IMG/VR virus record: IMGVR_UViG_3300001868_000225
Span: 1 to 52,879 of that record
Source of the DNA: a virus
Lineage: Duplodnaviria; Caudoviricetes
Direction: 5' to 3' (one strand)
DNA: 52,879 nt
Below the pieces are notes generated by a model. The model did no database searches, was not told the origin of the DNA, and worked only from the letters and a program-made list of their open reading frames with translations. Shown piece by piece: positions 47,170 through 50,775 of the stretch (its first letter is position 1; every line of letters starts with the position of its first letter). Made by a program: the position numbers and the translations under genes.

Positions 47170-50100
47170 TTAGAATGGTAAATCATCTTTATCCGGATCT
47201 TCCGGATCAGGATCAGTTTTGTTTCCAAAATTGATATTTGCTTGTTTTTCGACCGGAGGTGGTGCGTTGTGATCGTGATCTTCTTCGGCCAGTTCATCGC
47301 CACCGGTTTCGATAAATATATTCAGCAGGTCGTAATCAAAAACGAATGCTGTTGTGCTTGTCCGTTTATTTTTTCCGAGTTCGTTCTTTTCCTGGGCGCC
47401 GGTCCGTGGATCGATCTTCTTAAACGATTCCTTTTTCGTTTCGAATAGAAAGGCTTTCGAGTTGCGCAGGTAGTATTCAATCGTACTTTCGGGCAATGGC
47501 TTGTCACCTTCGCGGAGGCACTGGCTTTTATACATCGAAAATACACGGCTGGTAGTAAGGTAAAATAAGTTTTTGGGGTTAATCCATTGTATTTTCTGAG
47601 TCAGCCATTTGCCGTTTTCCATCTTGGTATAACCGGCTTCTTTGGCATAGATGAGTTTGTAATCACCATCTTCAAAAATCAGGTTCGAGCTGGCCAGGTA
47701 GCTGACAATTTTCCAGAAGTGACCAAGGTCGTCGTTCTTTTTCATTTCACCGTTTTGAGTCAACATCAGCGTCACGGCCAGTTGCATCGTTTCAGTCTGA
47801 TCCCATGTCAATTCAATTTCATCATCAAGAGTAGCATAAGCGGCCATGATCATTAGCCAGTTATTAAATACGCGGGTCTCAACGGGTTGACCTTTCAGCA
47901 ATTCTTCCAGCTTTATCGATACCTGGTCAACTTTCTTCGAATAATTCTCTTTAAAGTATGCCCGGTGCTTCAGTATCTGGTGAGTGATGTGTGTCAGGCC
48001 GCGTTTATTGATTTCTTCCAATTCCTCGTACAATCGAATCTCTTCCTTACTGAATTCCGTCTGAGTGAACGACAGCACCACGAAGCGCGAAAACAGGGCA
48101 ATATCAGCGGTCGCCATTTGCTGGCCACAAACAATCACTCCCTGATCAACCGAGGTCGTTTCCTTCTTTTTGTCCTTATCCATGTTCATGCGCGTGCGAC
48201 CGGTACCATCCCACAATCCCTTCAGGAACTCCCTTTTTTCCATTTCCAGATCATTCCGGTATTCATCGAGCACGCATAAAGCATTCGAACTGGTGGCCAC
48301 ATGATCGGCCAAAGCGGGTTTCGTAGTGTTGTGCAGATTTGGAATCCTTGGCAACCGGCCAAAGAAATGGAGAAGCGATTCGGCGCAGGCATTCTTACCG
48401 GCTCCTTTGGGACCAAACAGGTTCAGCATCGGGTATTTTGAGAACTTCCGGATGATCAGATCCCTGAACAGGCTGGCAAAATAAAAACTAAGTGCAATTT
48501 TACCATTGTCGCCAAATACCTTGGTGAATTTCTTCATGTATTCCCGGAGCGATATATTTCCTTCAACATGTATGAATTTGCGTTCGAATTCGAACAGGTT
48601 TTCTTCTCCGGAGTAAATGCGCGAGGCCGATGGGATGTAATAATTTTCGCCGTTGTTCATTGCGATTCCGTAACTGTCTGTTTCGGTAAATTTGCCGTTG
48701 AAAATGCCGTTTCCCCACACATAGATCCCATCTTTATTCCATCCCATTTGCGCAACTTCCTTGGCCGAATTTGTTTTTTCGTAGAGCCAGGCTTTCAACC
48801 GGTTTAAATCGGTTTCGGATCCGGTCCACAGGAAGTTTCCCAGGCTTTCAATTCTTACCTTGAATGCCGATATCGATACCAGGTCGCGCTGCGGAATCTC
48901 GATTACCCTTACCGTACCATGGTTGTTTTTCACCTCGTATAATCGCTTTGCATTGACTGTACTTTCGATGTGAAACAGCGGGGTCATGGTGAAATTGCTT
49001 TGCTGTTTTGGTGAGCCTTTCGAATCCTGAAAATACATGCAATTGTGATCGACATAGAAACCACGTTCGTAATATTCGTCGAGCGAAACGTTTGCAGGAA
49101 TAGCCCTCGACTTCTTAGTTTCAACCGGCGCTTTATCGGCCAGCCATGTTTTGAAGTGATCCTGCCAAAGCTTTTTTGGACCGATAATCTTTGATATTGC
49201 CTCCAGGTAAACCTCGTGTTTCGAAGGTTCATCATACCGGGTAACCAGGAATGATATTTCTTTGATCAGATCGGACTTGTATGCCGGGTTCTGGCTCTTT
49301 TCTGAAACATTAATTGTTTTCCAAATAATGTAGTCGGGCTGTTCCTGGTTTGCTTTTTCGAACGCTTCAATGGTTTTAAATGCCGTATCCGGATCTTCTT
49401 TTTCCGGGAGGATAATCACCGAAACGTGGAACTGTTCCCTGATCAGGATCTCCGCATTTTTGGCCATTGCTTTCTGTCCAGCCGAATCGCCGTCGTAAAT
49501 CAAAGTGACTTTGTTGGTGTATTGCTTCAGTAATTTGGCCTGATCGACAGTTAAGGCAGTTCCACAGGGTGCAAGCGTATTCGTAATTCCAATCTGGTGC
49601 ATCCGGGTCACATCAAAGTTTCCTTCAACCAGGTAAGCCTTATCTTCTTTCTTGATTTCGTTTCGTGCCAGGTTCAAGGCAAACAATTCATTGCCTTTGC
49701 AATAAATTGGCGTGTCTCCGGTATTCAGGTATTTCGGAATAGCCTTGTCGGTGCTTAGGGTTCGGCCTGTAAAACCTACCACCTTTCCCGACTTGCTGCA
49801 AATCGGAAACATGATCCTATTTCGGAAAGTGTCGTATTCGCGCCCATCTTTAGACTTGATCAGGTCGGCTTCGATCAGCAAATTTAACCCGATCGCATTT
49901 TCTTTTGCCCATTTCAACAGCACATTACCATCAGGCGCAAATCCGATGGAGAACGGCAGAATATTGTTATCGCCTTCGACTGCTTCGCGCTCAGGCGACG
50001 GTGCTTCGATGATCGGAGCATCAGCCACTGAGCTTGTAGAAGTGGCAAGCAACGCTTTCAACTGATCAGAATCAACATCCAAATCAGAAATCAGAACATT

Positions 50101-50775
50101 CCTTGGTTTCGATCCGTTAATTGGGCCAATAATTCCGGCAAGCTCAAGCTGATCAATGATTCTTCCGGCACGATTGTACCCAATCGAAAACTTTTTCTGA
50201 AGTGCTGATGCTAAACATTTTTGACTAAATATAACAAGTTCTGCAGCGGCATATAATAACGAATCGAGTTCGACGACTTCGACAGGCTCAGCCACCGGCG
50301 CTTCTATTTTTGGCTTTACTGGTTCGGTCCATGTTGACGAAAAAGGATCAAACCCACGATCGGCAAGATACCTGATTGCTTCAGGACTGGCTTTTAACTG
50401 ATCGGCAAAGAATTCAGCCGCTTTTTGGCAGGCAATCCGGAGCGCTTCTTTGTGCTTGTATTCTTCGTCGTTAAAGTTCGATTTATCGGCTATCCATGTA
50501 AAATCAAGATTCAGCTTTTTGGCTCCAATTTCAACGGCTTCTTTGAAGCCTACGCCCTGGCTTTCCTGCAAAAAGCTGATGGCATCGCCACCCTTGCCGC
50601 AGCCATAACATTTGTAAATTCCACGGGCTGGAGTAACGGTGAACGAAGGTGTTTTTTCGTTGTGAAACGGGCAACATGCCCTGTATTTATTGCCGATTGT
50701 CTTCAATTCAACGTAATTGCCTATAACCTCGGCAATATCTTCGTTGATGCGGTCAATGACTTCGCGAACATCCAT
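47170..50775 (-). CDS. DnaG-type primase fused to P-loop helicase-like domain, with inserted FtsK-gamma domain
   Basis: CHC2 finger [40 protein letters not shown], DPD toprim motifs; GPKGAGKN and VLDEY Walker A/B; DDLPF tail. Confidence 0.92.
   Translation of the reverse strand: [1201 protein letters not shown]

What the first reader, a model, noticed from the sequence alone, without database searches (positions are those of the whole stretch)
49960..50350. FtsK-gamma domain inserted into the phage primase and bracketed by inverted REP copies
Seen: ~120 extra residues between YLADRG and F.IGFAP, which are normally about 10 aa apart in DnaG. They include [52 protein letters not shown]. The coding segment (50043-50276) lies between CTGAGCTTGTAGAAG (50028-50042) and CTTCGACAGGCTCAG (50277-50291), inverted repeats with 13/15 match, and a third REP is at 49974. 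Known: this is the FtsK/SpoIIIE gamma winged helix that reads KOPS/SRS for oriented loading. Inference: a primase-helicase that gained sequence-directed, polar loading (or competes with host FtsK), possibly through REP-mediated domain capture.
Basis: partly seen in the sequence, partly recalled or inferred. Interest (0 to 1): 0.8.

Follow-up and report, generated by a model that had tools for sequence, protein, structure and literature searches.

The report
FtsK DNA-reading domain inside phage primase
A prophage of Bacteroidota-type bacteria carries, in the middle of its DNA primase-helicase, a copy of the small DNA-reading domain of the host chromosome pump FtsK; the fusion is real, rare, fast-evolving and dispensable, and what it does there has not been tested.

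Summary
The 1201-aa gene at 47170-50775 (minus strand) is a DnaG-type primase. About 119 extra residues (aa 144-262) sit between its zinc ribbon and catalytic core, and they contain a clear FtsK_gamma winged helix (Pfam E 3e-22). Independent assemblies carry the insert.

Nineteen of 59 aligned relatives have it. They form one clade, in which two gamma-less members are nested, so the simplest history is one gain and two later losses.

The C-terminal half is predicted to fold like the SCCmec Cch and SaPI Rep initiator-helicases. An iteron origin lies 1.2 kb downstream and is also present in gamma-less relatives, so gamma is not the origin reader.

The window's gamma keeps all seven host-FtsK-type DNA-contact positions. 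Across the clade, however, gamma is hypervariable: 27-58% identity between proteins whose cores are 90-94% identical.

The "REPs" are real dispersed palindromic repeats read in frame inside two linkers that are predicted to be disordered. They are absent from most gamma-bearing relatives and occur in both orientations, so REP-mediated capture is not supported.

My best reading is an accessory duplex-DNA tether or loader. This is inference only.

This scan has noted FtsK-gamma domains in other phage and mobile-element proteins before, but none inside a primase.

The parts
47170..50775 (-). Primase / initiator-helicase gene, 1201 aa (P0001)
   Evidence: ORF. Pfam domains. NCBIfam TIGR01391 dnaG scores 360 bits against a cut-off of 283.6. 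phrog_6444 DNA primase, E 3.5e-100.
50500..50760 (-). CHC2 zinc ribbon (aa 6-92)
   Evidence: PF01807, E 3.3e-32.
49990..50346 (-). Insert relative to gamma-less relatives (aa 144-262): left linker, gamma domain, right linker
   Evidence: Alignments. The outgroup has 7-10 residues here.
50269..50346 (-). Left linker (aa 144-169), predicted disordered
   Evidence: AF2 pLDDT is below 50 for aa 146-168.
50089..50268 (-). FtsK_gamma winged helix (aa 170-229); recognition helix [14 protein letters not shown] and wing GSKPRNV
   Evidence: PF09397, E 3.3e-22 and 82.6 bits. PDB FtsK gamma chains 2j5o, 2ve8 and 2j5p match at E 5e-10 to 9e-9. AF2 predicts helices 174-184, 189-196 and 200-212.
49972..50088 (-). 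Right linker (aa 230-268): a short helix, then a predicted disordered stretch
   Evidence: AF2 predicts helix 236-248 and pLDDT below 50 for aa 247-271.
50277..50298 (+). REP-like repeat, type A (CTTCGACAGGCTCAGCCACCGG), read on the gene strand as PVAEPVE (aa 160-166)
   Evidence: The 21-mer starting at 50278 is exact in at least 125 stretches of bacterial genomes.
50028..50042 (-). Degenerate type A copy in the opposite orientation (2 mismatches), read as TSTSS (aa 245-249)
49975..49994 (+). REP-like repeat, type B (TTCGACTGCTTCGCGCTCAG), read as PEREAVE (aa 261-267)
   Evidence: An identical 20-mer lies at 26859-26878.
49381..49968 (-). DnaG catalytic core and Toprim (aa 270-465)
   Evidence: PF08275, E 4.7e-27; PF13155, E 2e-18.
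47476..49098 (-). C-terminal P-loop domain (aa 560-1100, Walker A GPKGAGK), predicted to fold like Cch / SaPI Rep
   Evidence: AF2 pLDDT 89.3. Foldseek: 5dgk_A E 5.4e-13, 8tch_B E 8.5e-12, TM 0.53-0.59. No match by sequence in the PDB.
45758..46010 (.). Candidate replication origin: inverted blocks of GCGAAGTAAG-type 9-bp iterons in an A+T-rich spacer
   Evidence: The same iterons lie downstream of the primase gene in gamma-bearing and gamma-less relatives.
46092..46113 (+). Intergenic type A REP copy (1 mismatch) beside G-runs
26103..26124 (+). Type A REP copy at the 3' end of ORF 26080-26844
26859..26878 (+). Type B REP copy, 15 nt upstream of the start of ORF 26080-26844

Best explanation
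Shown:
- The gene encodes a three-part replication protein of a Bacteroidota-type siphovirus-like provirus: a DnaG-type primase (zinc ribbon, catalytic core, Toprim) fused to a C-terminal P-loop domain predicted to fold like the self-loading initiator-helicases SCCmec Cch and SaPI Rep.
- An ancestor of one small clade acquired, once, a Bacteroidota-FtsK-type gamma winged helix in the flexible zinc-ribbon/catalytic-core linker.
- The domain now hangs on two linkers that are predicted to be disordered.

Inferred:
- Gamma acts as an accessory duplex-DNA-reading tether. It would raise the local concentration of the protein on double-stranded DNA, or orient its assembly there, at short FtsK-type (KOPS-like) words. 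If the protein forms a ring like its structural relatives, one gamma per subunit would be available.
That job belongs to the rest of the protein or to another factor, because gamma-less relatives keep the same iterons.
- The domain is dispensable (lost twice), and its DNA-contact positions and overall sequence change quickly or are shuffled between lineages.
- The REP-like repeats that bracket it in this window are later colonists of the permissive linkers, translated in frame. They are not the agents of capture.
For: Domain identity:
- Pfam E 3.3e-22.
- PDB FtsK gamma chains match at E 5e-10 to 9e-9, with the alignment [14 protein letters not shown] against E. coli IGYNRAARIIEQME.
- R205, D208 and E211 align with E. 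coli R1300, E1303 and E1306, whose triple substitution makes FtsK KOPS-blind (passages of PMC2680272).

Host-type DNA-reading surface:
- Seven positions (N201, R202, R205, D208, E211, K222, R224) are the same as in 93-95 of 95 Bacteroidota-type FtsK gammas.
- The window's gamma is 53-67% identical (median 62%) to 94 such FtsK gammas.
- In the 660-2102 aa length class, 117 of the 120 nearest gamma-bearing proteins are FtsK translocases. Those that carry a name are from Bacteroidales, Flavobacteriaceae, Dysgonomonas and similar taxa.

One gain, two losses:
- All 19 gamma-bearing proteins fall in one clade of 21 tips (support 0.98).
- Gamma-less P0014 and P0020 are nested inside it (node supports 0.977 and 0.943).
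- Both keep a 16-residue remnant linker, against 7-10 residues in the outgroup.

Selection: dN/dS is 0.06 across gamma between the window and L001, the same as the core.

Flexible mounting: pLDDT is below 50 for aa 146-168 and 247-271, and 72-82 for the gamma fold itself.

Helicase half: Foldseek matches 5dgk and 8tch at E 5e-13 to 2e-11.

Not the origin reader: GCGAAGTAAG iteron arrays lie downstream of the primase gene in the gamma-less loci L007, L009, L025 and L014 as well as in the gamma-bearing ones.

Precedent: Bacillus phages Sam46 and Sam112 fuse FtsK_gamma to their small terminase (passages of PMC8190038).
Against: - No binding site has been identified.
- E. coli-type KOPS (GGGNAGGG) is not enriched: 6 matches against 3.7 +/- 2.0 expected, and 17 of 100 shuffles reached 6. 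The B. subtilis SRS word is absent.
- Skewed words cannot be separated from coding-strand bias, because almost every gene is on one strand.
- The domain has been lost twice. None of 5 gamma-less relatives' records holds a stand-alone gamma, although those records are only 56-90% complete. Any function is therefore non-essential.
- In 5 of the 19 gamma-bearing proteins the R1300-equivalent position is Q, E or D, and only 9 of 19 keep N201. DNA reading may therefore be altered or lost in part of the clade.
- In distant pairs gamma evolves far faster than the core (dN/dS 0.2-0.5 against 0.03-0.07). This also fits relaxed constraint.
- The helicase assignment and the disorder of the linkers rest on predicted structures only.
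Confidence: 0.45

Rival explanations
1. Near-neutral passenger. The gamma domain was inserted into a permissive disordered linker, has no selected role, and is slowly decaying or being deleted.
For: - Two independent losses inside the clade.
- Gamma identity is only 27-58% between proteins whose cores are 90-94% identical.
- DNA-contact positions are variable in the 19 primases but nearly invariant in 95 FtsK gammas.
- The same linkers also tolerate REP insertions.
Against: - dN/dS is 0.06 across gamma in the closest pair, equal to the core.
- All 19 gamma-bearing clusters keep an open frame and a Pfam-detectable domain.
- The three-helix fold is predicted with pLDDT 72-82.
- The window's copy keeps all 7 host-type contact positions.
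Confidence: 0.2
2. Protein-protein mimic of FtsK gamma. The domain engages a partner of host FtsK gamma, such as a Xer-type tyrosine recombinase or the phage's own integrase at 645-1958. This would couple replication to resolution or excision, or titrate the host factor. The fast evolution would reflect co-evolution with that partner.
For: - FtsK gamma activates XerD by direct contact (abstracts of PMC3130261 and PMC5052618, seen in the listings).
- Phages are known to supply their own Xer activators (abstract of PMC6744903).
- The record encodes a tyrosine integrase (phrog_1, E 3e-41).
- Hypervariability is typical of interaction surfaces.
Against: - The stretch aligned with the E. coli segment TEKRKA is FSQKCL here. 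I recall, without a call to back it, that this segment is XerD-contacting.
- The best-conserved part of the window's copy is the DNA-recognition helix and wing.
Confidence: 0.15
3. In the strong form, REP copies mediated capture of gamma from host ftsK. In the weaker form, they serve as recombination sites through which gamma alleles are swapped between phages.
For: - In the window, REP-like copies lie just inside both ends of the block that diverges from relatives (aa ~152-269).
- Gamma similarity does not track core similarity within P0001-P0012 (Spearman 0.18, p 0.16). This fits allele exchange.
- Another gene of the same phage, 26080-26844, is flanked by the same two REP types.
Against: - 15 of 19 gamma-bearing proteins lack REP-derived peptides in the linkers.
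- L004 and L005 have no REP-like DNA next to gamma.
- REP orientation differs between lineages.
- The insert boundary lies 16 residues outside the left REP, and that flank (WTEPVK) is conserved in the REP-free members.
- The nearest FtsK gamma is only 67% identical, so there was no recent capture.
Confidence: 0.1
4. Gamma is the origin-recognition domain of the initiator. It would read the GCGAAGTAAG iterons, as the winged-helix domain of phage P4 alpha reads its origin repeats.
For: - An iteron array lies 1.2 kb downstream of the gene.
- The iterons are purine-rich 9-mers.
- Winged helices are used as origin readers. The P4 alpha example is recalled, not from a call.
Against: - The same iterons are kept next to gamma-less primases: L007 (85% identical), L009, L025 and L014.
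- Gamma is hypervariable while the iteron word is constant across these loci.
Confidence: 0.07

Closest known systems
FtsK/SpoIIIE gamma subdomain (PF09397; PDB 2j5o, 2ve8/2ve9, 2j5p)
   Same: It matches the Pfam profile over 60 of 63 positions. The recognition helix and wing are nearly identical to Bacteroidota FtsK. The equivalents of E. coli R1300, E1303 and E1306 are present.
   Different: It is not at the C-terminus of an alpha-beta translocase motor: P0001 has no PF01580 or PF17854 match. It is internal, between the primase zinc ribbon and the catalytic core. It is hypervariable among orthologues, whereas FtsK gammas are conserved.
[quoted passage not shown]
   Same: It is also a phage DNA-handling protein that borrowed a host-like FtsK gamma, presumed to act as a DNA-recognition module (passages read).
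   Different: The partner there is a terminase and the domain is terminal. Here the partner is a primase/initiator-helicase and the domain is inserted internally on two linkers.
SaPIbov1 Rep and SCCmec Cch initiator-helicases (PDB 8tch, 5dgk)
   Same: The C-terminal half has the same predicted fold (Foldseek E 5e-13 to 2e-11, TM 0.53-0.59). An origin made of iteron blocks around an A+T-rich spacer lies nearby. The layout of SaPI origins is recalled, not from a call.
   Different: Here the helicase is fused to a DnaG-type primase. Sequence identity is about 11%. No gamma domain is known in those proteins.
Phage P4 alpha protein (primase, helicase and winged-helix origin-binding domain); recalled, not from a call
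   Same: A single phage polypeptide combines a primase, a ring helicase and a winged-helix DNA-binding domain.
   Different: In P4 the winged helix is C-terminal, unrelated to FtsK gamma, and reads the origin. Here gamma is internal, and the origin iterons do not depend on it.
Rickettsia palindromic elements and other intragenic MITE/REP insertions (review PMC10969869)
   Same: Short dispersed palindromic repeats are inserted in frame into protein-coding genes and translated (passages read). Here they encode PVAEPVE, TSTSS and PEREAVE. L001 carries a complete hairpin in the right linker (-24.9 kcal/mol, z -5.3).
   Different: The units are much shorter (about 20-60 nt against about 150 bp). 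The same 21-mer occurs in genomes of several phyla. No associated transposase was looked for.

Membership tests
FtsK_gamma domain (PF09397) | Scores above Pfam's gathering threshold over most of the profile | tested here: met
   78.4 bits against 30.6, profile positions 3-62 of 63. 82.6 bits in the six-frame scan.
FtsK_gamma domain (PF09397) | Three-helix winged-helix fold | tested here: met
   AF2 model: helices 174-184, 189-196 and 200-212, then short strands, with pLDDT 72-82. This is a prediction only. The gamma part alone was not put through a fold search.
FtsK_gamma domain (PF09397) | Recognition-helix residues needed for KOPS reading (E. coli R1300, E1303, E1306) | tested here: met
   They align with R205, D208 and E211. 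The residues are named in passages of PMC2680272.
FtsK_gamma domain (PF09397) | Binds an 8-bp polar DNA word | not testable with these tools
   Needs EMSA or SELEX. The motif counts were uninformative.
FtsK/SpoIIIE DNA translocase | Alpha and beta motor domains (PF17854, PF01580) N-terminal to gamma | tested here: not met
   Neither domain was found in P0001 at E up to 0.1. The protein is not an FtsK.
Bacterial-type DnaG primase | CHC2 zinc ribbon, DNAG_N catalytic core and Toprim, in that order | tested here: met
   PF01807 at 6-92, PF08275 at 270-370 and PF13155 at 381-464. TIGR01391 scores 360.3 bits against a cut-off of 283.6.
Bacterial-type DnaG primase | C-terminal DnaB-binding domain | tested here: not met
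   No such Pfam or NCBIfam match. The C-terminal half is predicted to fold like Cch / SaPI Rep.
Cch / SaPI Rep-type self-loading initiator-helicase | The fold of 5dgk and 8tch, with a P-loop | tested here: met
   Foldseek E 5.4e-13 to 1.6e-11, TM 0.53-0.59, on a model with pLDDT 89.3. Walker A GPKGAGK is seen in the sequence.
Cch / SaPI Rep-type self-loading initiator-helicase | Hexamer with ATP-driven unwinding and origin melting | not testable with these tools
   No oligomer prediction or assay was done.
REP / MITE-like dispersed palindromic repeats | Many dispersed copies, more than chance | tested here: met
   7 matches against 0.64 expected, and 0 of 100 shuffles reached 7. The strict pattern gives 5 against 0.135 in 200 Markov shuffles. 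At least 125 genome stretches hold the exact 21-mer.
REP / MITE-like dispersed palindromic repeats | Imperfect palindrome able to form a hairpin | tested here: inconclusive
   The L001 copy forms a strong hairpin (z -5.26; 0 of 200 shuffles folded as well). The window's copies do not (z -1.34, +0.70 and -0.87). In the window they are half-sites or decayed copies.
REP / MITE-like dispersed palindromic repeats | Cognate RAYT or other transposase, and target-site duplications | not tested
   Not looked for.

The most novel reading that the evidence does not exclude
The gamma cassette is an exchangeable, fast-evolving specificity module. Through it a phage initiator-helicase-primase would read the host's own FtsK polarity words, or a diverged set of words in each lineage. 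That would give its ring a preferred loading site and direction on DNA, or let it interfere with host FtsK/Xer at those words. The REP-studded disordered linkers would be the seams at which alleles are swapped. This would be the first replication protein that uses the chromosome-segregation code.
Probability: 0.15. Interest if true: 0.8.

Novelty: new variant of a known kind. Interest (0 to 1): 0.55.

Why it matters
FtsK gamma is the textbook reader of chromosome polarity. It is known to be borrowed by phage proteins such as small terminases, exonuclease- or RdgC-like proteins and motor-less FtsK-like proteins. I found no report of it inside a primase or an initiator-helicase. The full-text search for 'FtsK gamma' with 'primase' returned one unrelated review. 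The searches listed no such fusion.

If the domain does guide loading, it links phage replication to the host's segregation code. It would also give a handle for finding the still unknown KOPS-type word of Bacteroidota.

Two further points are of wider interest for how phage proteins gain, tune and lose domains. The first is the contrast between a conserved core and a hypervariable gamma. The second is that cross-phylum REP-like repeats are translated as linker peptides.

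Tried and rejected
- **KOPS and SRS words in the window.** GGGNAGGG gives 6 matches, not above shuffles. GAGAAGGG gives 0. GAAGAAG is 22:2 in favour of the coding strand, as are many purine-rich words. I rejected this as uninformative because nearly all genes share one strand.
- **Iterons as the gamma target.** Rejected, because gamma-less relatives keep them.
- **A stand-alone gamma gene in gamma-less relatives.** Found in 0 of 5 records, which are 56-90% complete.
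- **A gamma-bearing primase in 251 sampled genomes of the order of G006.** Not found in those searched. The best matches cover only residues 1-145 of the query; 150 matches were listed and 96 were not.
- **Partners of the 70 best gamma-bearing representatives, out of 150 returned.** These are DUF4236, Mrr_cat, TIR, AAA, RNase_T and FtsK motors. None is a primase. The ranking is biased towards proteins with tandem gammas, and the other 80 were not scanned.
- **Phage records.** 366 hold a gamma match. None of the annotated rows among the best 60 or the spread 60 is called a primase. The best hit, MT837090, is a 627-aa FtsK-like ORF and not a primase.
- **Names for the nearest gamma proteins.** None is on record.
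- **Gamma-only tree.** With 68 columns it is too weak to say whether the primase gammas form one group. The smallest split that holds all 19 also holds 53 FtsK tips.
- **C-terminal half by sequence.** No PDB match.
- **RNA.** No RNA holder was listed.
- **Paper PMC3384302.** It was searched for residue names and for Bacteroidetes, with no hits.
- **Not attempted.** No complex prediction was run.

Full report
**What is there.** The finding lies in a 1201-aa ORF on the minus strand, 47170-50775. Pfam finds four domains:
- a CHC2 zinc ribbon at aa 6-92 (E 3.3e-32);
- an FtsK_gamma domain at aa 170-229 (E 3.3e-22, 78.4 bits against a cut-off of 30.6, profile positions 3-62 of 63);
- the DnaG catalytic core at aa 270-370 (E 4.7e-27);
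- Toprim at aa 379-465.

NCBIfam's dnaG model scores 360 bits against a cut-off of 283.6. A six-frame scan of the whole record finds this one gamma match and no other, at 50089-50268. The record is an IMG/VR provirus of 52,879 bases, about 85% complete. It carries a tRNA, a tyrosine integrase, an endolysin, a tape measure, a head protease, ParB-like and other phage genes, almost all on the minus strand.

**Is the insert real?** In an alignment of 59 family members, the stretch between the conserved R-G/N-F and P-F-x-x-G motifs is 114-134 residues in 19 proteins, 16 residues in two (P0014, P0020) and 7-10 residues in the other 38. The extra piece in the window is about aa 144-262, or 49990-50346. 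Three IMG/VR contigs (L001-L003) encode the same insert, with gamma 90% identical. Contigs from runs not flagged as possible sources bridge both junctions: X6 covers 49994-50443 with no differences, and X7 covers 49715-50225 with 33 differences. The quoted repeats are at the stated coordinates.

**History of the insert.** I built a maximum-likelihood tree on the 1044 alignment columns outside the insert. All 19 gamma-bearing proteins fall in one clade of 21 tips (support 0.98). The two gamma-less proteins P0014 and P0020 are nested inside it, at nodes with support 0.977 and 0.943. Both keep a 16-residue linker whose right end (..NN-x-x-P-F) matches the gamma-bearing forms and not the 9-residue outgroup linker. 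The simplest history is one gain followed by two deletions. I left out P0022 (893 aa, N-terminally short) and used only the first 60 hits. The architecture is rare:
- Only 19 of the best 120 hits carry it.
- It was not found in 251 sampled genomes of the order that holds G006.
- It was not found among the annotated rows of the phage records.
- It was not found among the 70 scanned of the 150 best gamma-bearing representatives.

**Where gamma came from.** The window's gamma is 53-67% identical (median 62%) to 94 FtsK gammas drawn from the nearest long proteins. Those that carry a name are from Bacteroidales, Flavobacteriaceae, Dysgonomonas and similar taxa. It is 47-58% identical to the chromosomal FtsK gamma of three Bacteroidota genomes. 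Seven positions of the recognition helix and wing (N201, R202, R205, D208, E211, K222, R224) are the residues found in 93-95 of 95 such FtsK gammas. R205, D208 and E211 align with E. coli R1300, E1303 and E1306. The triple alanine substitution of those three makes FtsK KOPS-blind (passages of PMC2680272). The domain therefore descends from Bacteroidota-type FtsK. It was not captured recently, and in this window it still has an intact FtsK-type DNA-reading face.

**An unexpected property: hypervariability.** Among the 19 primases, gamma diverges far faster than the rest of the protein.

| Pair | Core identity | Gamma identity |
|---|---|---|
| P0016 / P0019 | 92% | 27% |
| P0004 / P0006 | 94% | 58% |
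| P0001 / P0002 | 90% | 47% |
| P0004 / P0010 | 86% | 87% |

- Within P0001-P0012, core and gamma identity are uncorrelated (Spearman 0.18, p 0.16).
- The contact positions vary. N201 is N in 9 proteins and K in 10. R205 is R in 7, K in 7 and Q, E or D in 5. D208 is D in 11 of 19.
- Between the window and L001, gamma shows dN/dS 0.06, like the core. In more distant pairs it shows 0.2-0.5, against 0.03-0.07 for the core, though dS is near saturation there.
- At the nucleotide level, the block that diverges from L005 runs from about aa 152 to 269.

I cannot tell allele shuffling from rapid divergence. The gamma-only tree (68 columns) is too weak.

**The rest of the protein and the origin.**
- The C-terminal half (aa 560-1100, Walker A GPKGAGK) has no sequence match in the PDB.
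- Its AF2 model (pLDDT 89.3) matches the SCCmec Cch helicase (5dgk, E 5.4e-13) and the SaPIbov1 Rep initiator-helicase (8tch, E 8.5e-12) at TM 0.53-0.59. MCM and poxvirus E5 helicases follow.
- About 1.2 kb downstream of the gene (45758-46010) lie inverted blocks of GCGAAGTAAG-type 9-bp iterons in A+T-rich DNA.
- The same iterons follow the primase gene in gamma-bearing loci (L001-L006) and in gamma-less ones: L007 at 85% identity, and L009, L025 and L014 at 52-60%. Gamma is therefore not needed to read this origin.
- None of the 5 gamma-less relatives' records holds a separate gamma gene.

**How gamma is mounted.** The AF2 model of aa 1-480 (13-row alignment, mean pLDDT 77.7) gives a three-helix gamma (174-184, 189-196, 200-212; pLDDT 72-82). 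It lies between two segments with pLDDT below 50, aa 146-168 and 247-271. These are the segments that carry the REP-derived codons.

**The REPs.**
- CTTCGACAGGCTCAG has 7 matches at up to 3 mismatches in the window, against 0.64 expected.
- The 21-mer TTCGACAGGCTCAGCCACCGG is exact at 50278, has 1 mismatch at 46093 (intergenic) and 2 mismatches at 26104.
- A longer variant, TTCGACTGCTTCGCGCTCAG, is exact at 49975 and 26859.
- The exact 21-mer also occurs in at least 125 stretches of genomes labelled Bacteroidota, Chloroflexota, Actinomycetota, Spirochaetia, Planctomycetia and others. Some copies are tandem or hairpin forms.
- On the gene strand these copies are read in frame as PVAEPVE (aa 160-166), TSTSS (aa 245-249) and PEREAVE (aa 261-267).
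- In L001 the right linker holds a complete 23-nt-arm palindrome in frame (-24.9 kcal/mol, z -5.3). The window's copies no longer fold better than shuffles.

Four results argue against capture by REPs:
- Exact REP-derived pentapeptides occur in the linkers of only 4 of the 19 gamma-bearing proteins: P0001, P0005, P0012 and P0013.
- L004 and L005 have no REP-like DNA beside gamma.
- The left-linker copy is read as LRQAQPP, the other orientation, in P0005, and nearly so in P0008.
- The insert starts 16 residues before the left REP, with the flank DPxSxxWTEPVK shared by REP-free members.

The repeats are best seen as secondary, in-frame colonists of permissive linkers. This resembles what is described for Rickettsia palindromic elements (passages of PMC10969869). 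A weaker idea stays open: that REPs ease the exchange of gamma alleles. The same two REP types also flank ORF 26080-26844.

**How it most likely works.**

Shown:
- domain identity;
- a single gain and two losses;
- a host-type contact surface in this copy;
- independence of the iteron origin;
- purifying selection in the closest pair.

From predicted structures only:
- a helicase-like C-terminal half;
- the disordered tethers.

Inferred: gamma serves as an accessory duplex-DNA tether or loader for the primase/initiator-helicase at short FtsK-type words. I give this about 0.45. The rivals are a near-neutral passenger (0.2), a protein-contact mimic of FtsK gamma such as a Xer or integrase partner (0.15), a REP-linked capture or exchange mechanism (0.1) and an iteron reader (0.07). 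No target word was found. GGGNAGGG is not enriched, and strand skews are confounded by the one-strand gene layout.

**Compared with what is known.** FtsK gamma fused to phage proteins is known: the small terminase of Bacillus phages Sam46 and Sam112 (PMC8190038, passages). In phage records, gamma also lies under genes annotated as FtsK-like translocases and as exonuclease- or RdgC-like proteins. I found no report of gamma inside a primase or an initiator-helicase. The full-text searches were 'FtsK gamma' with 'primase' (one unrelated review), 'FtsK gamma' with 'phage' and 'FtsK_gamma'. Subscription papers are not covered, and I read no supplements. Earlier notes of this scan describe gamma-like domains in other prophage and mobile-element proteins, next to primases but not within them.

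**Verdict.** This is a new variant of a known kind: domain borrowing of FtsK gamma. It is real and rare, it has an interesting evolutionary pattern, and its function is unproven.

Noticed in passing
window 45758-46010: Candidate replication origin: inverted blocks of 9-bp GCGAAGTAAG-type iterons in A+T-rich DNA, 1.2 kb downstream of the primase gene. The same iterons lie beside the primase gene in relatives down to 52% identity.
   Followed up: partly
window 26080-26878: ORF 26080-26844 (phrog_5696, with weaker matches to DNA methyltransferase families) is flanked by the same two REP types as the gamma cassette: type A at 26104 inside its last codons, and type B at 26859 just upstream of its start.
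   Followed up: no
L073-L152 (genome contigs), e.g. L075 100-340 and L124 100-340: The exact 21-mer TTCGACAGGCTCAGCCACCGG occurs in at least 125 genome stretches from several phyla, sometimes as 54-nt tandem units or as hairpins with CTGAGCCTGTCGAAG. I cannot explain why one short REP-like word is shared across phyla.
   Followed up: partly
L001 3745-3812: A complete 23-nt-arm palindrome (-24.9 kcal/mol, z -5.3) lies in frame inside the right linker of an 86%-identical primase. It should form a strong hairpin within a coding mRNA.
   Followed up: partly
window 47476-49098: The C-terminal half of the primase has no Pfam, NCBIfam or PDB match by sequence. Its predicted fold matches the SCCmec Cch and SaPIbov1 Rep helicase-initiators. 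This DnaG-Cch/Rep fusion family is common in Bacteroidota prophages (thousands of hits).
   Followed up: partly
window 46060-46092: Two long G-runs (GGGGGG and GGGGGGGGG) lie directly before the intergenic REP copy at 46092, between the iteron array and the small ORFs downstream of the primase gene.
   Followed up: no
window 6990-7676: Long in-gene tandem repeats (periods 111 and 99 nt, 2.1-2.6 copies, 88-91% matches) lie inside the tail-fibre-like ORF 6768-8030.
   Followed up: no
window 613-1958: A tRNA gene (613-686) is overlapped by the start of the integrase ORF as listed (645-1958). This probably marks the attachment end of the provirus.
   Followed up: no
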